From IMG/VR virus record IMGVR_UViG_2531839179_000017: a stretch of DNA of 14,423 bases; one strand, given 5' to 3'. The translations under genes and the position numbers were made by a program. This document shows positions 8,770 to 14,423 of this stretch, piece by piece (within the stretch, counting starts at the first letter, position 1; the number at the start of each line of letters is the position of its first letter). The stretch comes from a virus (taxonomy: Duplodnaviria > Heunggongvirae > Uroviricota > Caudoviricetes). The notes beneath the pieces were generated by a model. That model saw only the letters and a list, made by a program, of their open reading frames with translations. It was not told the DNA's origin and ran no database searches.

Positions 8770-8975
8770 TGCCCACCTCTACCCACTTTTTTCGCCCACT
8801 TTTTACGTTTTCCCACTTCGTCCAACGTGGGAAATTTGGGATTTATATCATCTTGTTTCATAGGTATTTTTTTAGTGCCCACTTTTTGGGATATATACAC
8901 GTGGGAAAGTGGGTAATTTTGTTAAAATTCCGTTAAATCGCCCACCTTTCCCACTTTTAATGCCCACTTTTTACA
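8770..8975. repeat. Iteron cluster with AT-rich spacer: putative replication origin
   Basis: At least nine direct copies of a CCCAC(T)nTTT-type motif (for example GCCCACTTTTT at 8794, 8877 and 8962; CCCACTTTT at 8782 and 8950) plus inverted copies (GTGGGAAA at 8827 and 8901), interrupted by AT-rich stretches at 8838-8876; immediately 3' of the replicative ATPase gene. Confidence 0.7.
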
Positions 8976-10371
8976 GTGGTCCTACATCATCACCGTCAAT
9001 GTAGATCACGTCGTCTTTTTCCAGTTTGGCTAACCATCGTTTAAGGTGTTTTGTGTCATACCCCAGCTTTTTCATATCGTCACGTAACAGCGGGATCGTG
9101 CACTTGTCGCCGTGCTGTGTGCGTGAACGTATGCATCCCCATAGCGCGGTATGGTTTTCCGTCTTGTTGCCTGCCTCCTCGATGCGCTCCAGTTCAACGG
9201 GAGGGCGCGGCTTATCCACCACCACCAGCGACGTGATTAATTCACCGTCAGCGTCGGTAAAAAGCTCCACCACGCGTAAGTCATATGCGGCTTCTTTGAG
9301 TTCCTCCGCGTCCTTCATTTTGGTGCATGAGATAACCAGCGCTTCGCTTCCTGCGTCCTCCCTGCGTATCCGGTATTCAGCATCCAGCGAAGCACGAAAT
9401 GCACTGGAACCGCGCGCGCCTTTCGTCTCATCCTTGCCGGAATGGTGAACCACCAGCACCGTGGCCCCTGTGCGTCGTTTCAGTTCGTCACAACCACGGA
9501 TAAACGCCCCCATATCACGGGAATCATTTTCATCATTCCCACCAAAGCAACGCGCCAGCGTATCCAGAATAATCATGCGTACAGGTTTACCCGTTTCCCG
9601 CTCCACCTGACGGGCAGCGATAACCATTTCATCAACATCAAGCGGGGCAGCCGGAAAGATGGGGCGGTTTACCAGATACAGATTTTTCACCTGCTCATCG
9701 TGCACAACCTCCCAGGCTTTTACACGACGCGGAACACCTATACCGCCTTCACCAACCACATAGAGAACCGCACCATGTGCAACCCTGCGGCCTCCCCACT
9801 GGCGACCAGTGGCAACATGGCACGCCCACGATCCGGCAAGGAATGATTTATAGGACCCGCTAGCCCCGTATATGCTGCATAGCGATACCGCCGGAATAAT
9901 CCCCTTAACCACGTAATCCAGTTGCGTGTCGTATCCGGTAGATCCAACGCTCATCGGTAGCGTGGTTTTTCGCTGGTGGTTTTTTTCTTCCGCCGGCTCT
10001 TTCCCGCGCACCCGTTCCAGGTATTCGCGCCAGTTCTCCCGCATATGGCTGTGCATCCCTTCGGGGTAATAATTCGCATCAGTTACACCCGCCGCCGCCA
10101 GCTTGTGCGCAATGGCATTAATATTTGATGGCCTGATGTGGCCTGCCTTGTACAGCCGGACACAATAGCGCCCCTCGTCGATGATTCTCAGGTCTGCCAG
10201 TTCATCCAGTTGATCATCAGCCAGCACAACGGGAGGCACATTATCGCCAGCCAGTCGCCCGTCCTGTTCCTGCCACTGTTTCGCATGTGCCCAGGCATCA
10301 CTACCCGCAAAAATAATGACTTCGGTCATCTTGTCGTAAGGCTGTTTTTTTAAGTTCGGTGCGCTTTTCAT
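8971..10371 (-). CDS. Replication initiator ATPase/helicase (RecA-like, AAA_25/RepA-type) with C-terminal winged-helix-like region
   Basis: 466-aa ORF, ATG at 10371 overlapping the upstream stop (ATGA); Walker A GASGSYKS, Walker B-like RMIILDTLARCF, conserved VLVVHHSGKD...GARGSSA block typical of RepA/DnaB-like RecA-fold replicative ATPases. Confidence 0.8.
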   Translation of the reverse strand: MKSAPNLKKQPYDKMTEVIIFAGSDAWAHAKQWQEQDGRLAGDNVPPVVLADDQLDELADLRIIDEGRYCVRLYKAGHIRPSNINAIAHKLAAAGVTDANYYPEGMHSHMRENWREYLERVRGKEPAEEKNHQRKTTLPMSVGSTGYDTQLDYVVKGIIPAVSLCSIYGASGSYKSFLAGSWACHVATGRQWGGRRVAHGAVLYVVGEGGIGVPRRVKAWEVVHDEQVKNLYLVNRPIFPAAPLDVDEMVIAARQVERETGKPVRMIILDTLARCFGGNDENDSRDMGAFIRGCDELKRRTGATVLVVHHSGKDETKGARGSSAFRASLDAEYRIRREDAGSEALVISCTKMKDAEELKEAAYDLRVVELFTDADGELITSLVVVDKPRPPVELERIEEAGNKTENHTALWGCIRSRTQHGDKCTIPLLRDDMKKLGYDTKHLKRWLAKLEKDDVIYIDGDDVGPL

Positions 10372-10667
10372 TTCTTGCCCCTGAATCCGTTAATCATGGT
10401 TTTCAGCTTCTGGATGTTTGCCCGTGCCCTGGCGTTGCTGGTGGGCACGTTATGCGGCGCGGTCTGTACCAGAGAAAAATCACGCCGGAACTGATAAACA
10501 GGCATCACGCAATCATATTCGTAACCTTCACGGCGGTAAGTTACGCACCGTCCCGCCACGCCCTTAATCATTACCGTGCCGCCGTACTGGTCGCGGTAAA
10601 TATCACCGCGCATAAATTTAGGGTGAGTGTTGCCACTGGCAGTTAAGCCAGAATATTTAAGTTTCAT
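10368..10667 (-). CDS. Hypothetical protein (DUF4222-like by recall)
   Basis: 99-aa ORF, ATG at 10667 with GGAG 8 nt upstream; motif GDIYRDQYGGTVMIKGV...YRREGYEYDCVMPVYQFRRDF resembles the prophage DUF4222 family as I remember it. Confidence 0.5.
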   Translation of the reverse strand: MKLKYSGLTASGNTHPKFMRGDIYRDQYGGTVMIKGVAGRCVTYRREGYEYDCVMPVYQFRRDFSLVQTAPHNVPTSNARARANIQKLKTMINGFRGKK

Positions 10668-10672
10668 TATTT

Positions 10673-10906
10673 TTATTCTCCGGTGTGCTGTTCGTTATAT
10701 CTGTCGTGCAATGTCTCTATTTCCTGCAACTCATTTATTACAGGCTCAAGAAGCGTTATTAATGATGTAATAATCCGCGTTTTTTTTGCATTACGTTCAT
10801 TATCGCCAAAGGATTCAAGGCACATCCGCAATATTTCGTACATACCTTCAGCGTAAGCAAGGGCACTAAATGCGCGGTCTATTGTTTCAAGATAAATATC
10901 ACGCAT
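10673..10906 (-). CDS. Hypothetical small acidic protein (paralog C)
   Basis: 77-aa ORF, ATG at 10906 one nt after the upstream stop; predicted helical; shares a hydrophobic-helix-Cys-acidic motif (EILRMCLESF) with neighbouring ORFs. Confidence 0.5.
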   Translation of the reverse strand: MRDIYLETIDRAFSALAYAEGMYEILRMCLESFGDNERNAKKTRIITSLITLLEPVINELQEIETLHDRYNEQHTGE

Positions 10907-10907
10907 A

Positions 10908-11129
10908 TTAATCCCCGTCCGTTGTTTTTCTTAAAACAGCTTCTGTCACGAAATCAGCATAGTTAGCGGCAATATCAAGAATATTTAGCCCTGTACCTCT
11001 GTGCTCATCAGTGCAAAGAAAGAAAAAAGCCACCCGCATAATTTCAGATATTGACGAAAGCGCATCAGCCGCATCATCAGGAACGCCGGAAAATTCTTGT
11101 TTCAGGGAATTAAAACGATCATCACGCAT
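10908..11129 (-). CDS. Hypothetical small protein (paralog B)
   Basis: Start chosen at ATG 11129 (MRDDRFNSLK...) immediately after a G8 run that acts as a Shine-Dalgarno; the track's longer start at 11177 overlaps the upstream gene by 55 nt. Motif PDDAADALSSISEIMRVAFFFLCTDE parallels the upstream ORF. Confidence 0.5.
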   Translation of the reverse strand: MRDDRFNSLKQEFSGVPDDAADALSSISEIMRVAFFFLCTDEHRGTGLNILDIAANYADFVTEAVLRKTTDGD

Positions 11130-11343
11130 AACCCCCCCCATTTTCACAATCAGCAACAAGAATATTTTTAGCGTCATTCAGCGACCGCGTTGCGATGTAT
11201 CGGATACATTCCAGGGCGAACAATGTGTATTCCTCCCGTTCTTCCTTTTGTGCAAGCTCTGCCGTGCATTCAATATCAATAAGCGCATGCATCAGCGTAG
11301 TGAGTGCGGCGGCGGCTGCGTCCGGACGGATGTTATTGCACAT
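11122..11343 (-). CDS. Hypothetical small protein (paralog A)
   Basis: Start chosen at ATG 11343 (MCNNIRPDAAAAALTTLMHALIDIECTAE...) with GGAGGGG 6 nt upstream, overlapping the upstream stop; C-terminus ENGGGYA is encoded through the G8 tract. Confidence 0.5.
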   Translation of the reverse strand: MCNNIRPDAAAAALTTLMHALIDIECTAELAQKEEREEYTLFALECIRYIATRSLNDAKNILVADCENGGGYA

Positions 11344-11764
11344 GGTGTACCCCTCCGCATTTTTTTTCGTTAGAAATAAGCGTTCTTCTTTCCTGTTCAT
11401 CGCTCAGGAATACGCAGACCTCACCGCTAAGGCGTTTAAGTAAGCCGATGATTGCCCCTGATTCGCTGTCGGTCATCATGCCAGGGTAATCCTCTGCCAG
11501 TGCGCAAATAACTTCGATTTGGTGGGCGCGTTCTGCTGCCTGTTGTAGTGTGATTTCCTGGCTCATAAGCCTACCCCCTTGGCGAATACGGGCAGCGAAT
11601 ACCATCACGCAGCCAGCCGGGGATTGCTGGCGTGCTTCCTGTTCGCTGGTGGCCTCAATGGTAATCACGCGCGGTTGTGCCGTGCTCAGGGCGATAAAAC
11701 GCCAGATGTATTTATTCAGGTTGTGCGAGCCCCGCCCTTGCGGGTGTGTGGTATGATTTCTCAT
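11333..11764 (-). CDS. First gene of the early operon; N-terminal Icd-like (cell-division-inhibitor-like) region plus C-terminal helical domain
   Basis: Start chosen at ATG 11764 (GAGG 6 nt upstream); the track's longer ORF starts at a TTG inside the operator. Motif YIWRFIALSTAQPRVITIEATSEQEARQ...VFAARIRQ matches my recollection of Icd-like proteins of P4-type elements (unverified). Confidence 0.5.
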   Translation of the reverse strand: MRNHTTHPQGRGSHNLNKYIWRFIALSTAQPRVITIEATSEQEARQQSPAGCVMVFAARIRQGGRLMSQEITLQQAAERAHQIEVICALAEDYPGMMTDSESGAIIGLLKRLSGEVCVFLSDEQERRTLISNEKKCGGVHHVQ

Positions 11765-11861
11765 AGCTACCTCGATACTTTCGCTATCGTTGGTGGTTAG
11801 AAGCCCGGTTAGTGTTAGCGCACTGCCGGGTTTCGTCGTTTCTGCACCTTGCGCCAACAAG

Positions 11862-11913
11862 GTGTTGAACACCAATTTAAACCCAGGTGTTAAACACGTC
11901 AAGTGTTGAACAC
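11862..11913. promoter_or_regulatory. Triple palindromic operator (GTGTT-N-AACAC) spanning divergent promoters
   Basis: O1 GGTGTTGAACACC (11861-11873), O2 GTGTTAAACAC (11887-11897), O3 AGTGTTGAACACT (11902-11914). Minus-strand promoter candidate: -35 TTGACG (11902-11897), 17-bp spacer, -10 TAAATT (11879-11874), with O1 at the start site. Plus-strand promoter candidate: -35 TTGAAC inside O3, -10 CATACT (11928-11933). Confidence 0.65.
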
Positions 11914-11962
11914 TTATTTTTTTCCTGCATACTGCATTTGTTTTTTATGAGGGGTACACCAC

Positions 11963-12142
11963 ATGGCGACAAAAGCAGTAAACGCAAAATCACAAACCGT
12001 TGCGGCAAGGGTTCCGCATGAAGTTATGAACAATGTTGAGGCGGTAAAAATGCCTGGCGAAAGTACGGGGCAATTTGTTACTGCAGCATTAAAACGAGAA
12101 GTTGAATATCGCCAGCGGCGCAAGGCCAAAGAACCAGAGTAA
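11963..12142 (+). CDS. Small ribbon-helix-helix-like DNA-binding protein; candidate repressor
   Basis: 59-aa ORF (absent from track, under 60 aa): MATKAVNAKSQTVAARVPHEVMNNVEAVKMPGESTGQFVTAALKREVEYRQRRKAKEPE; GAGGGG 8 nt upstream of ATG; beta-strand, helix, G-x-S/T turn, helix pattern typical of Arc/MetJ/CopG folds; divergent from the early operon. Confidence 0.5.
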   Translation: MATKAVNAKSQTVAARVPHEVMNNVEAVKMPGESTGQFVTAALKREVEYRQRRKAKEPE

Positions 12143-12199
12143 TCACCATCAGCGCCGTGGTGTAAGGTATTACGGCGCATTGCTATGCAGGACAACACA

Positions 12200-12373
12200 A
12201 TGACCGATAAAGAATTGACCAAAACATTATCACCGGCACGGAAAAGACGGCGCAGAAAGATAGAACATGAATCAGAAAGATTCGCGCCATGTGCTTTTGC
12301 CCTTGAGCAATTCCTTAAAGAGTACAGGGAAAAGCGCTCATTGCAGGTATGGCAACGAACTGAACCAGACTGA
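12200..12373 (+). CDS. Hypothetical small basic protein, second gene of the divergent unit
   Basis: Start chosen at ATG 12200 (MTDKELTKTLSPARKRRRRKIEHESERF...) with AGGA 8 nt upstream; the track start at 12185 lacks a well-spaced Shine-Dalgarno. Followed by a plus-strand terminator. Confidence 0.45.
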   Translation: MTDKELTKTLSPARKRRRRKIEHESERFAPCAFALEQFLKEYREKRSLQVWQRTEPD

Positions 12374-12468
12374 TTGCATTGCCCACCAGCCTGATAGCGG
12401 CTATCATCCCCGTGCTTATGTTTGGGATCACACACACAAACGGCGCAGCGGGTTATCTGTTCAGAAAG

Positions 12469-12496
12469 GCGGCTCCATTTCGGGGCCGCTTTTTTT
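12469..12496 (+). terminator. Rho-independent terminator of the plus-strand small-gene unit
   Basis: GCGGCUCC-AUUUC-GGGGCCGC (8-bp stem including one G-U pair) followed by U7 at 12490-12496. Confidence 0.65.
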
Positions 12497-12642
12497 ATGC
12501 CTGAAAAACCCCAATTTTGTGGTTTTCCAGTCTCACCAGGGCGAACGAATCCCCGCCCACGTTCTGGCGTATATTCAATCTTCATGGTTATAGCTCTGTG
12601 TTCAGATGATTGATGTGTGGCGGCTGTGTGCCGCCAGCGTGA

Positions 12643-12831
12643 TTAATGAACTGCCTTGCAGCTATCCTTCCAGGCCAGAACCTCGGATAAAGACCAGCCA
12701 ACGGAACGACCGCCAAGTTTACGACGTGATGGGAATTGTCCGGCCTTTTCCAAGCGGTAGCGGCATGAGCGGCTAAGGCCTGTTAGCTTTTCGCATTCTT
12801 TTTCACGTATAAACCGATCAGTGCTTAACAC
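12643..12831 (-). CDS. alpA: AlpA-family phage regulatory protein (HTH; excision/derepression activator-like)
   Basis: 62-aa ORF: REKECEKLTGLSRSCRYRLEKAGQFPSRRKLGGRSVGWSLSEVLAWK matches the AlpA/prophage CP4-57 regulatory protein pattern; first codon is GTG at 12831 with AGGGGG 5 nt upstream. Confidence 0.8.
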   Translation of the reverse strand: MLSTDRFIREKECEKLTGLSRSCRYRLEKAGQFPSRRKLGGRSVGWSLSEVLAWKDSCKAVH

Positions 12832-12990
12832 TATTGCCCCCTTTCGTTTCTTAAAGAGTTATTTCGTGTTCTATTGCGTTGGGATGTGTCTGATTGTGTC
12901 AGGATGATTCAGAGTTGGCAAATGTTGAGGTCGTATGGTTTACAGAAACAGGAATAATCAGGATAAAATCATTTAAATTCATGTTAATAC

Positions 12991-13205: not shown

Positions 13206-14423
13206 TTATTTTCTTCTGGCTACTGGTAGCGTGGTTACGTTTTCATGTGTTCCCGCCAGTATCCCTAACCGCTCCGTCCACATATCCAGCGCATTGCGTT
13301 TAGCATCCAGATAACGGGAATGATTATAAACTCGCTGCATTCCTGGCATCTGGTGGCCTGTAAGCTGCTCCACGACATGCGGATCAACGCCTAAATCGTT
13401 CAGCATGGTTGTAAAGGTGCGCCGGATGTCATGCAGTGACCAGTGAGGATGATTAAGCCTCCTGTGCGCTAATCTTCCATACTGCGATACGCTGGCCTCC
13501 TGTTTCACTTCCCCCAGCAATAAGCCCGTGTGCCTGTTCTGCTCCACCAGCTGCGTGACGAACGGCAGGATCGCTTCCGGTATGGGCCGGAATATTGCGA
13601 CCTTCGTTTTGCTGTGCTCCTTCGGAACGGTCCATAGCATTTCCGTGAAATCCCACTCCCCGATCTCCGATAACCTCAGTTCTACCGTTCTGGCTCCGAA
13701 GACAATCAGGAGGCGGATTAACGCGACGTAGTAAGGGGAGAATATTTTTTTGTCCAGTGCCTGCAATAATTCGCCAAGTTCTTTGTTACTTAAGACACGT
13801 TCGCTTATATCCGGTTTTTTCCCAACGTCCGCCACGTTCAGATCGTCCAGAACGTTGCTGATTGCATAGCGCCGCCTACGGCAGAACTTAAGCGCCTGTT
13901 TGCACGCCTGTAGCACGAATCCGGCAGTAACAGGCGTTCGCTTTGCCACCTGGTCAAAACAGGCCAGCCAGTGCCGTAGCTCGCATTTATCCAGCGGCAT
14001 AGCACCAATCTGCTGTATTACGTGATTATTAAGTCGCCTTTTCAGGGCGATATAATCCACGCGGTTTTCCTTTACGTAATACTCAAGCCAGTAGGTGAGC
14101 GCATCGCCAACCGTTACCGGCTTTAACGCTTCCTGTACGGTGTAATTAAGCTCATGACGTGGATTTTTCCCCTCTGCCAGCCATGCGCGACACTGGGCGG
14201 CTTTTTCCCTGGCTGATTTCAGGCTCAGATCAGGATAACTTCCCAGCTTAATGCGTTCGGGTCGTGTCTCCCTTCCCGTTCCGGCCCTGTATGTGAAATA
14301 CCAGGTCAATTTCCCTGATGTTAAATATTTCACGCTCAGGTTTCCGCCATCACTATAAAACGTGTTTTTCTCCGCTGGCTTACCATGAAGTTTCCTTAGC
14401 AAGGTATCGCTCAGTTTGTTCAT
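13206..14423 (-). CDS. int: Site-specific tyrosine integrase (P4/CP4-57-type, N-terminal arm-binding domain)
   Basis: 405-aa ORF with ATG at the last window base (14423-14421); N-terminal DUF4102-like region (KLTWYFTYRAGTGRETRPERIKLGSYPDLSLKSAREKA), C-terminal catalytic region with HDIRRTF...LTGHQ...RVYNHSRYL (R-H-R-Y signature). Confidence 0.9.
   Translation of the reverse strand: MNKLSDTLLRKLHGKPAEKNTFYSDGGNLSVKYLTSGKLTWYFTYRAGTGRETRPERIKLGSYPDLSLKSAREKAAQCRAWLAEGKNPRHELNYTVQEALKPVTVGDALTYWLEYYVKENRVDYIALKRRLNNHVIQQIGAMPLDKCELRHWLACFDQVAKRTPVTAGFVLQACKQALKFCRRRRYAISNVLDDLNVADVGKKPDISERVLSNKELGELLQALDKKIFSPYYVALIRLLIVFGARTVELRLSEIGEWDFTEMLWTVPKEHSKTKVAIFRPIPEAILPFVTQLVEQNRHTGLLLGEVKQEASVSQYGRLAHRRLNHPHWSLHDIRRTFTTMLNDLGVDPHVVEQLTGHQMPGMQRVYNHSRYLDAKRNALDMWTERLGILAGTHENVTTLPVARRK

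What the first reader, a model, noticed from the sequence alone, without database searches (positions are those of the whole stretch)
11132..11139. G8 homopolymer at the junction of two small ORFs; a one-base change fuses them
The coding strand has GGGGGGGG encoding the C-terminal Gly-Gly-Gly of ORF A and acting as Shine-Dalgarno for ORF B. With eight G the frames differ by one; with seven G the reading frame continues ...ENGGVMRDDRF..., giving an in-frame A-B fusion of about 145 aa. This could be a slipped-strand phase-variation site, a programmed frameshift site or a homopolymer sequencing error splitting one gene.
Basis: seen in the sequence. Interest (0 to 1): 0.55.

Follow-up and report, generated by a model that had tools for sequence, protein, structure and literature searches.

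The report
Hypervariable poly-G joint between satellite genes
A run of eight G sits where two small genes of an E. coli phage satellite overlap; its length really does differ (7 to 11 G) between almost identical copies, so the two proteins are made separately or fused, but this looks like a tolerated mutational hot spot, not a proven switch.

Summary
The G8 tract (window 11132-11139, minus strand) is real. It encodes the Gly-Gly-Gly tail of ORF A, is a strong Shine-Dalgarno match for ORF B, and lies just upstream of an ATGCGTGA start/stop overlap. The window is a capsid-forming PICI-type phage satellite of E. coli.

In 89 related loci the tract is G7 (24), G8 (40), G9 (18), G10 (5) or G11 (2). 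Length is already randomised between copies whose flanks differ by under 0.5%, yet is identical in all 14 pairs with identical flanks. Six independent assemblies carry the window's own element (99.95% identical over 8.5 kb) with G10 instead of G8. So this is heritable slipped-strand variation, not sequencing noise.

G7 and G10 give natural A-B fusion proteins of 144-145 aa. G8 and G11 give two coupled genes. G9 gives an extended A.

Distant homologs are stand-alone A and stand-alone B, and B also occurs behind a different gene with its own G6-G10 tract. Two genes is therefore the ancestral state.

Tract length and frame are not conserved, and there is no downstream RNA structure, which argues against programmed frameshifting.

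Best reading: a hypermutable SD/Gly homopolymer whose frame changes are largely tolerated. An adaptive contingency switch is not excluded. A and B have no known function.

The parts
11132..11139 (-). G8 homopolymer: codes Gly-Gly-Gly at the C-terminus of ORF A and forms the Shine-Dalgarno-like element of ORF B. It is the hypervariable site (G7-G11 in relatives).
   Evidence: sequence. (length census). (anti-SD duplex -11.1 kcal/mol, top 1% of the window background).
11122..11343 (-). ORF A (MCNNIRPD...CENGGGYA*, 73 aa plus stop). Small helical-hairpin protein, phrog_5146, function unknown.
   Evidence: The exact protein is found on at least 24 contigs.
10908..11129 (-). ORF B (MRDDRFNSL...TTDGD*, 73 aa plus stop). 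Small helical-hairpin protein, phrog_24341, function unknown.
   Evidence: Stand-alone distant homologs start at the same Met.
11122..11129 (-). ATGCGTGA: B's start codon and A's stop codon overlap by 8 nt, a translational-coupling layout. This is the modal arrangement in relatives.
11360..11367 (-). A8 homopolymer at the junction of the upstream 'MSQE' ORF and ORF A. A7 alleles fuse MSQE to A, and to B when the G tract is G7 or G10, giving 217-221-aa products.
   Evidence: P0071, P0105. (25 A8: 2 A7). (L153 has A7).
11333..11566 (-). 'MSQE' ORF (77 aa plus stop, phrog_1478, unknown function). Optional module, present in about a quarter of related loci.
11579..11580 (-). AA where relatives have a single A. 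This 1-nt insertion puts the Icd-like ORF and the MSQE ORF in one frame (189-aa ORF 11333-11902). It is shared by all sibling assemblies of this element.
10673..10906 (-). ORF C (77 aa, phrog_2196, unknown function), the next gene in the chain. It starts 1 nt after B's stop.
10368..10667 (-). DUF4222 protein gene (context).
8971..10371 (-). RepA-type AAA_25 helicase, the replication gene of the satellite (context). Its ATGA overlaps the DUF4222 gene.

Best explanation
The G8 tract is a mutationally unstable homopolymer at the translationally coupled junction of two ancestrally separate small genes, A and B. These lie in the early (AlpA to replication) operon of an E. coli capsid-forming PICI-type satellite. 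The tract has two ordinary jobs: it codes the Gly-Gly(-Gly) tail of A, and it provides a strong G-rich Shine-Dalgarno element 2 nt upstream of B's AUG. Because it is a G:C run of 8 or more, replication slippage changes its length far faster than point mutations accumulate. Copies therefore drift among three layouts. G8/G11 gives separate A and B with the ATGCGTGA overlap (the modal, canonical state, and the state of this window). G7/G10 gives an in-frame A-Gly-linker-B fusion. G9 gives A extended by LCVMIVLIP, ending 30 nt inside B. B keeps its own SD and AUG in every state, and A and B are predicted to be independent helical hairpins joined by a disordered linker. The changes are therefore largely tolerated, and the polymorphism is close to neutral rather than an ON/OFF switch. 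Shown here: the tract, the polymorphism and its heritability, the natural fusion products as annotated ORFs, and that two genes is the ancestral state. Inferred: slippage as the mechanism, the SD function, tolerance and near-neutrality, and that the fusion polypeptide is actually made.
For: Element identity.
- Integrase, AlpA, RepA helicase, SSB, major capsid, protease, portal, adaptor, head closure, HNH, TerS and TerL are all present. The closest relatives are annotated likewise.

Length census.
- G7 24, G8 40, G9 18, G10 5, G11 2 in 89 loci with this junction.

Heritable and fast.
- 0 of 14 pairs with identical 950-nt flanks differ in tract length. 7 of 9 pairs with under 0.5% flank divergence differ, which matches the random expectation of 0.68.
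- An NJ tree of 76 loci needs at least 30 changes; label shuffles give a mean of 36.

Same element, different tract.
- L145-L150 are 99.95% identical to the window over 8.5 kb. The only differences are G10 vs G8, an A8 vs A7 run, and one synonymous substitution.
- The O26:H11 element has G8, G9 (Sanger genome 11368) and G10 on identical or near-identical flanks.

Specific to G runs.
- Of 31 recurrent homopolymer sites in these loci, only the two G tracts before B show five length classes. A/T runs of 7-8 are almost invariant.
- In E. coli, indel rates rise exponentially with run length, and 8-bp G:C runs are noted as outliers in run length among tRNA genes, in a passage that calls such mononucleotide runs strongly mutagenic (PMC8510543).

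Two genes ancestrally.
- Distant homologs are stand-alone A (72-77 aa, ending ADIQEVGHA or ADIQDVYP, with no poly-Gly) and stand-alone B (75-77 aa, starting at the same Met).
- In L089 the order is A, X, B, and the X/B junction carries its own G6-G10 tract with the same ATGCGTGA overlap as its mode.
- PHROGs holds A, B and the fusion as three separate families.

SD role.
- The anti-SD duplex is -11.1 kcal/mol for G7-G11, in the top 1% of the window background.
- Other junctions in the operon use GGAGG or GGGG motifs encoded in the upstream gene's last codons.

Tolerance.
- The length distribution is smoothly unimodal around 8 with no three-base periodicity.
- Stabilised alleles exist in both the split frame (GGGGGTGG, GGGGTGGG) and the fused frame (G4).
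- The AF2 model shows two helical hairpins (residues 9-67 and 91-142) with a low-confidence linker at 70-96.
Against: - No expression data: neither the SD function nor the products were measured.
- Near-neutrality is inferred only from the shape of the length distribution. G6 is absent in this context (0 against 24 G7), and no stabilised allele sits in the G9-type frame. Both hint at some selection on frame, which a purely neutral model does not predict.
- The tract is uninterrupted in about 90% of loci despite two synonymous positions within it. SD constraint could explain that, but so could second-order selection for mutability.
- The census rests on assemblies found through exact flanking patterns, so there is ascertainment bias. 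Some complete genomes are long-read assemblies that could carry homopolymer errors.
- The AF2 model has only moderate confidence (mean pLDDT 64).
Confidence: 0.6

Rival explanations
1. Adaptive contingency locus. The poly-G tract is maintained by selection because stochastic, reversible switching between separate A + B, fused A-B and extended-A/low-B states diversifies satellite behaviour within a host population. The affected behaviour could be induction, helper specificity or interference.
For: - The tract is hypervariable and reversible on the lineage scale.
- It stays uninterrupted in about 90% of loci.
- An independent G6-G10 tract precedes B in a different gene context.
- A second homopolymer (A8) at the next junction upstream also produces natural fusions.
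- G6 alleles, and stable alleles in the G9-type frame, are missing, which suggests frame matters.
Against: - No state switches a gene off: B keeps its SD and AUG in all of them.
- The length distribution has no three-base periodicity.
- Stabilised alleles exist in both the fused and the split frames.
- SD and Gly-codon constraint alone can explain tract purity.
- E. coli has functional mismatch repair, so switching should be much slower than in classical contingency loci (my own knowledge, not tested here).
- The functions of A and B are unknown.
Confidence: 0.22
2. Programmed recoding. Ribosomal frameshifting or transcriptional slippage on the G run makes a fixed ratio of A and A-B fusion from a single allele, as with IS-element transposases or dnaX.
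For: - A homopolymer at an ORF overlap with an in-frame fusion one base away is the classical layout for recoding.
- Fusion-length proteins are conserved enough to form their own PHROG family, phrog_2512.
Against: - The site is not conserved in length: G7-G11, with all three frame relations common.
- The shift needed differs by allele: +1/-2 in G8, -1 in G9, none in G7/G10.
- The 100 nt downstream show no stimulatory structure (z = 0.31).
- Distant homologs have two genes with no slippery run.
- The fusions in databases are explained by DNA-level G7/G10 alleles.
Confidence: 0.06
3. Artefact or decay. A-B is really one 144-aa gene, and the G8 in this window is a homopolymer sequencing error or a pseudogenising frameshift.
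For: - Fusion ORFs of 144-145 aa are abundant in E. coli assemblies.
- Homopolymers are error-prone on some sequencing platforms (my own knowledge).
Against: - G8 is the modal state.
- The window is 100% identical over 8.3 kb to an independent record (L152), and the exact 73-aa ORF A occurs on at least 24 contigs.
- Pairs with identical flanks never disagree in tract length.
- The G8 state creates a precise ATGCGTGA coupling overlap, like the other junctions of the operon.
- A and B occur as separate genes in distant relatives, and they are separated by another gene in L089.
Confidence: 0.04

Closest known systems
Simple-sequence (homopolymeric-tract) contingency loci of Neisseria, Haemophilus, Campylobacter, Helicobacter and Bordetella
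   Same: A G:C run of 7 or more lies at the edge of a reading frame. Its length differs between closely related strains through slipped-strand mispairing, and each step changes the reading frame. Comparable surveys exist for Bordetella and Neisseria (PMC1891110 and PMC5084427, listed).
   Different: - The host is E. coli, which is mismatch-repair proficient, and the locus lies on a phage satellite.
- The frame change does not turn a gene on or off. It toggles two proteins between separate, fused and extended forms, and the downstream gene keeps its own start.
- No within-population switching rate or phenotype is known.
Recoding sites at ORF overlaps (IS1/IS3 transposase -1 frameshift; dnaX; transcriptional slippage in IS elements)
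   Same: A homopolymer sits at the overlap of two ORFs, and a fusion protein lies one frame-step away.
   Different: - Those sites have a fixed slippery sequence and a fixed frame relation, often with a downstream stimulator.
- Here length and frame relation vary freely between alleles, and no stimulator is detected.
Translationally coupled overlapping genes (ATGA / ATGNNTGA overlaps) in phage and satellite operons
   Same: - The upstream stop overlaps the downstream start, and the SD is encoded in the last codons of the upstream gene.
- The whole chain from the Icd-like gene to RepA is built this way.
   Different: The SD here is a pure G run long enough to be unstable. Neighbouring junctions use GGAGG or GGGG and are stable.
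Capsid-forming PICI (cfPICI) satellites of Enterobacteriaceae (e.g. EcCIEDL933; SatelliteFinder model, PMC10085698)
   Same: The window carries int, alpA, a replication gene, capsid, protease, portal, adaptor, connector or head closure, HNH, terS and terL in the typical order. No tail or lysis gene was recognised in it.
   Different: Nothing about the element itself is unusual. The small ORFs between alpA and the replication gene are uncharacterised accessory genes.

Membership tests
Homopolymeric-tract contingency (phase-variable) locus | Uninterrupted mononucleotide run long enough to slip (about 7 or more G:C) within or at the edge of a coding or control region | tested here: met
   G8 at 11132-11139, spanning A's last codons and B's SD.
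Homopolymeric-tract contingency (phase-variable) locus | Tract length differs among closely related strains or otherwise identical loci | tested here: met
   G7-G11 census. G8 vs G10 on a 99.95%-identical 8.5-kb element. G8, G9 and G10 in the O26:H11 element. At least 30 changes on a tree of 76 loci.
Homopolymeric-tract contingency (phase-variable) locus | A length change switches expression of a gene product on or off, or changes its level | tested here: inconclusive
   The frame changes, giving split, fused or extended forms. No product is predicted to be abolished, because B keeps its SD and AUG. Expression was not measurable with these tools.
Homopolymeric-tract contingency (phase-variable) locus | High-frequency, reversible switching within a clonal population, with a selectable phenotype | not testable with these tools
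   This needs raw reads or fluctuation assays and a known function. A and B have no annotated function.
Programmed ribosomal frameshift / transcriptional slippage site | Slippery sequence and frame relation between the two ORFs conserved across homologs | tested here: not met
   Tract lengths of 7-11 with all three frame relations common. Distant homologs lack the run.
Programmed ribosomal frameshift / transcriptional slippage site | Downstream stimulatory RNA structure, or an upstream SD-like stimulator at a fixed spacing | tested here: not met
   The MFE of the 131-nt region is no better than shuffles (z = 0.31).
Programmed ribosomal frameshift / transcriptional slippage site | Both the short and the fusion product made from a single allele | not testable with these tools
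   Requires proteomics or cDNA sequencing.
cfPICI phage satellite (context of the locus) | Integrase, AlpA-type regulator and replication gene, plus capsid, protease, portal, head-tail adaptor and connector, HNH, TerS and TerL | tested here: met
   Pfam and PHROG hits. Core-component list from PMC10085698.
cfPICI phage satellite (context of the locus) | No tail or holin genes | tested here: inconclusive
   None was seen among the large ORFs of the 14.4-kb window that were scanned. However, the window ends inside the element's terminal genes, and the small ORFs were not all scanned.

The most novel reading that the evidence does not exclude
The poly-G tract, together with the A8 tract one junction upstream, could be a genuine contingency device of E. 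coli phage satellites. Stochastic tract slippage would re-wire the early operon by fusing or separating small helical proteins. Sibling cells would then carry satellites with different induction, helper-specificity or interference behaviour, as a bet-hedging mechanism on a mobile element in a mismatch-repair-proficient host.
Probability: 0.15. Interest if true: 0.65.

Novelty: new member of a known kind. Interest (0 to 1): 0.4.

Why it matters
For annotation: the same locus is currently called two genes, one fused gene or an extended gene depending on the strain, and it is filed as three unrelated PHROG families. Treating it as one hypervariable junction removes spurious gene-content differences in E. 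coli pangenomes and satellite catalogues.

For biology: it is a clear, well-replicated case of homopolymer-driven gene fusion and fission on a phage satellite in E. coli, a species in which simple-sequence variation is seldom considered. If the states differ functionally, it would give satellites a cheap diversity generator in their early control region. That can be tested directly with locked alleles.

Tried and rejected
- Function of A and B. Pfam, NCBIfam, PADLOC and a PDB profile search gave nothing. PHROGs gave only 'unknown function' families. I did not run fold searches, because the AF2 model is a pair of generic helical hairpins at pLDDT 64 and matches would be meaningless.
- Paralogy of the four small ORFs (MSQE, A, B, C). 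Pairwise BLASTP gave no significant similarity; the best was A vs B at E = 0.03.
- Other species. The protein-based scan of one genome per species returned only Shigella flexneri and Escherichia ruysiae. The exhaustive representative search found only 39 clusters. The family is narrow, so deep comparative tests are not possible.
- Literature. I found no paper on homopolymer variation in PICI, cfPICI or P4-like satellites.
- Frameshift-stimulating structure downstream of the tract: none found.
- Bare statistical rarity of a G8 in the window is not significant under dinucleotide-preserving shuffles, so the case rests on comparative data.
- One Pfam call failed because of wrong coordinates and was repeated. 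In one search the start I assumed for the Icd-like gene was wrong, so that line should be ignored.

Full report
**1. Observation**

All genes in this part of the window lie on the minus strand. The plus strand has C8 at 11132-11139, so the coding strand has G8.

The coding strand reads TGT GAA AAT GGG GGG GGT TAT GCG TGA. ORF A starts at the ATG at 11343 and ends at the stop at 11122-11124. It is 73 aa and ends CENGGGYA*. ORF B begins at the ATG at 11129 (MRDDRFNSL..., 73 aa, stop at 10908-10910). B's start and A's stop overlap in ATGCGTGA.

A G8 on its own is not statistically surprising here: 74 of 200 dinucleotide-preserving shuffles contain one. The case therefore rests on comparative data.

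**2. Context**

The window is an E. coli phage satellite of the capsid-forming PICI type.
- Replication and control genes: integrase (13206-14423), AlpA (12643-12831), an Icd-like gene, a chain of small ORFs, a DUF4222 gene and a RepA/AAA_25 helicase, followed by SSB.
- Capsid and packaging genes: major capsid protein, protease, portal, head closure, adaptor, HNH, TerS and TerL.
- These match the cfPICI core set described in PMC10085698.

The window is 100% identical over 8.3 kb to GCA_000211935.2 contig AFFZ01000026.1. There it sits next to pntB and tqsA, the same site as the 97%-identical element of strain PE164.

**3. The tract is truly hypervariable**

Census.
- A pattern scan of IMG/VR for the junction with six or more G returned 82 loci.
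- Together with E. coli genomes, the census for this junction is G7 24, G8 40, G9 18, G10 5, G11 2.

Heritability and speed.
- In 76 loci with 950 nt of aligned flank, all 14 pairs with identical flanks have identical tracts. That argues against random read or assembly error.
- Pairs whose flanks differ by under 0.5% already differ in tract length in 7 of 9 cases. That equals the random expectation of 0.68.
- Fitch parsimony on a neighbour-joining tree needs at least 30 length changes. Shuffled labels need 36 on average. The tract therefore carries almost no phylogenetic signal.

Two close-up cases.
- Six independent assemblies (L145-L150) carry the window's own element at the same chromosomal site. 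Over 8.5 kb they differ from the window at only three places: G10 instead of G8, an A8 instead of A7 run at 11918-11924, and one synonymous T>C at 11287.
- In the O26:H11 EHEC element, strain 2013C-4187 has G8, the Sanger-sequenced strain 11368 has G9 and strain 10_253 has G10. G8 and G9 sit on identical 541-nt flanks. The G10 strain differs from them by two substitutions and is annotated as one fused CDS.
- By rank position in the spread list of 111 records at 99% identity or more, roughly a fifth are G8. Most are 437 nt long, the length that was confirmed as G9 in the one such record inspected (strain 11368).

Control.
- Of 31 recurrent homopolymer sites in these loci, only the G tracts preceding B show five length classes. 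A/T runs of 7-8 are nearly invariant.
- This fits E. coli mutation-accumulation data. Indel rates rise exponentially with run length. The paper also singles out the 8-bp G:C runs in four leu tRNA genes as outliers in run length, in a passage that calls such runs strongly mutagenic (PMC8510543).

**4. Consequences of each length**

| Tract | Result |
|---|---|
| G7, G10 | In-frame A-B fusion of 144 or 145 aa |
| G8, G11 | Separate A and B with the ATGCGTGA overlap |
| G9 | A extended by LCVMIVLIP, stopping 30 nt inside B |

- The fusion alleles are abundant as annotated proteins. Examples are P0022 on 258 contigs, P0029 on 152 and P0043 on 212. P0002 is the window allele with G10.
- For G9, strain 11368 has an 80-aa CDS annotated for A, and P0144 shows the extension.
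- All three frames are common, and the length distribution is smoothly unimodal around 8 with no three-base periodicity.

**5. One gene or two?**

Two genes is the ancestral state.
- The exhaustive search of 1.8 billion cluster representatives found only 39 clusters.
- The more distant ones are stand-alone A proteins (72-77 aa, ending ADIQEVGHA or ADIQDVYP, with no poly-Gly) and stand-alone B proteins (75-77 aa, beginning at the same Met).
- In L089 the order is A-like, a 127-aa gene X, then B. The A/X junction uses CAGGAGGTGCACCATGCATAA, a stable GGAGG SD with the same 8-nt overlap design.
- The X/B junction carries its own G tract: G6 in 30 loci, G7 in 4, G8 in 3 (an X-B fusion), G9 in 1 and G10 in 2. 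The ATGCGTGA overlap is again the mode.
- The shorter G6 is much more uniform than G8, as expected if instability scales with run length.
- PHROGs holds A (phrog_5146), B (phrog_24341) and the fusion (phrog_2512) as separate families, all of unknown function.

**6. What the tract is for**

- It pairs with the 16S anti-SD at -11.1 kcal/mol for every length from G7 to G11. That is in the top 1% of 20-mers in the window.
- It ends 2 nt before B's AUG.
- Every junction of this operon places a G-rich SD in the last codons of the upstream gene and overlaps start with stop.
- alpA's own SD is a G5 run that is G5, G6 or G7 in relatives.
- I therefore read the tract as an ordinary SD plus Gly codons that happens to be a pure G run.

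The AF2 model of the fusion has mean pLDDT 64. It shows two helical hairpins (residues 9-67 and 91-142) joined by a low-confidence linker (70-96) that includes the Gly stretch. This fits two independent modules that tolerate being tethered.

**7. Rivals**

- Programmed frameshifting or transcriptional slippage is unlikely. The site is not conserved in length or frame relation. The shift needed differs by allele. No downstream structure is detectable (z = 0.31).
- A sequencing artefact or a split single gene is rejected by sections 3 and 5.
- An adaptive contingency switch cannot be excluded. The tract is uninterrupted in about 90% of loci. G6 alleles are absent in this context despite 24 G7. 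The few stabilised alleles lie in the split frame (GGGGGTGG, GGGGTGGG) or the fused frame (G4), never in the G9-type frame. These hints suggest the G9-type state is tolerated only transiently.
- Against a switch: no state abolishes a product, and A and B have no known function.

**8. Verdict**

The most likely explanation (about 0.6) is a hypermutable SD/Gly homopolymer at a coupled junction of two separate genes, with largely tolerated fusion, split and extended variants. G8, as in this window, is the canonical state.

It is a new member of a known kind: homopolymeric-tract length polymorphism. It is unusual mainly in sitting on an E. coli phage satellite and in toggling gene fusion rather than expression. 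Interest is moderate.

Noticed in passing
window 11360-11367 (minus strand A8; T8 on plus): A second homopolymer lies at the next junction upstream, between the MSQE ORF and ORF A. With A7 the frame reads ...SNEKNAEGY(T)MCN..., fusing MSQE to A. Natural 217-221-aa triple fusions MSQE-A-B exist (P0071; P0105 on 52 contigs). The census is 25 A8 to 2 A7, so this run is far more stable than the G tract.
   Followed up: partly
window 11579-11580 (minus strand): The window has CCAAGGGGG where 21 of 22 related loci have CCAGGGGG. The extra A puts the Icd-like ORF and the MSQE ORF in one frame (189-aa ORF 11333-11902), replacing the usual ATGA overlap. The same insertion is present in L145-L150 and L152, so it is a real lineage marker and not a read error.
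   Followed up: yes
window 11918-11924 (minus strand A7): An A7 run in ATGCAGG-A7-TAAG, upstream of the Icd-like gene, is A8 in the otherwise 99.95%-identical sibling elements. In the wider set it is A8 in 13 loci and A7 in 2. So two of the only three differences between the window and its siblings are homopolymer lengths.
   Followed up: partly
window 12837-12841 (minus strand G5, upstream of the alpA GTG at 12831): The Shine-Dalgarno region of alpA is also a pure G run. In relatives it is G5 (21), G6 (5) or G7 (1). The anti-SD duplex is -10.7 kcal/mol.
   Followed up: partly
L089:1246-2054 and about 43 other IMG/VR loci: Gene B also occurs directly behind a different 127-136-aa gene X, which starts MHNLSISDL.... 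That junction has its own G6-G10 tract (TCATTCAG-Gn-TAAACATG). G8 there yields an X-B fusion. The operon is a mosaic of interchangeable small-gene modules.
   Followed up: partly
protein P0127 (109 aa): The sequence reads ...CENGGGLCVMIVFNALKQEF.... It looks like a G9-type frame followed six codons later by a second one-base change, probably in the T run of CGTTTTAAT, that returns to B's frame. The result is a fusion with a scrambled linker, i.e. a possible compensatory frameshift.
   Followed up: no
L052 and L081 (both from IMGVR_UViG_2740892233_000016): One 14-kb viral contig carries two copies of the A/B junction, one with G8 and one with G7. This suggests tandem or duplicated satellite modules with different tract lengths.
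   Followed up: no
L087:3167-3367 (Shigella flexneri CP182556.1): The Shigella copy has the G8 split arrangement, but B is truncated to 50 residues from its own Met (...STGLMY*; the listed 66-aa ORF starts at an upstream ATG). This is probably a further frameshift or decay in that copy.
   Followed up: no
window 11914-12585 (minus) and 11963-12142 (plus): A 223-aa minus-strand ORF overlaps a 59-aa plus-strand ORF whose counterpart in PE164 is annotated as a YlcI/YnfO family protein. PGAP marks the long minus-strand reading frame as a partial pseudogene in PE164. The long ORF is therefore probably not a real gene.
   Followed up: no
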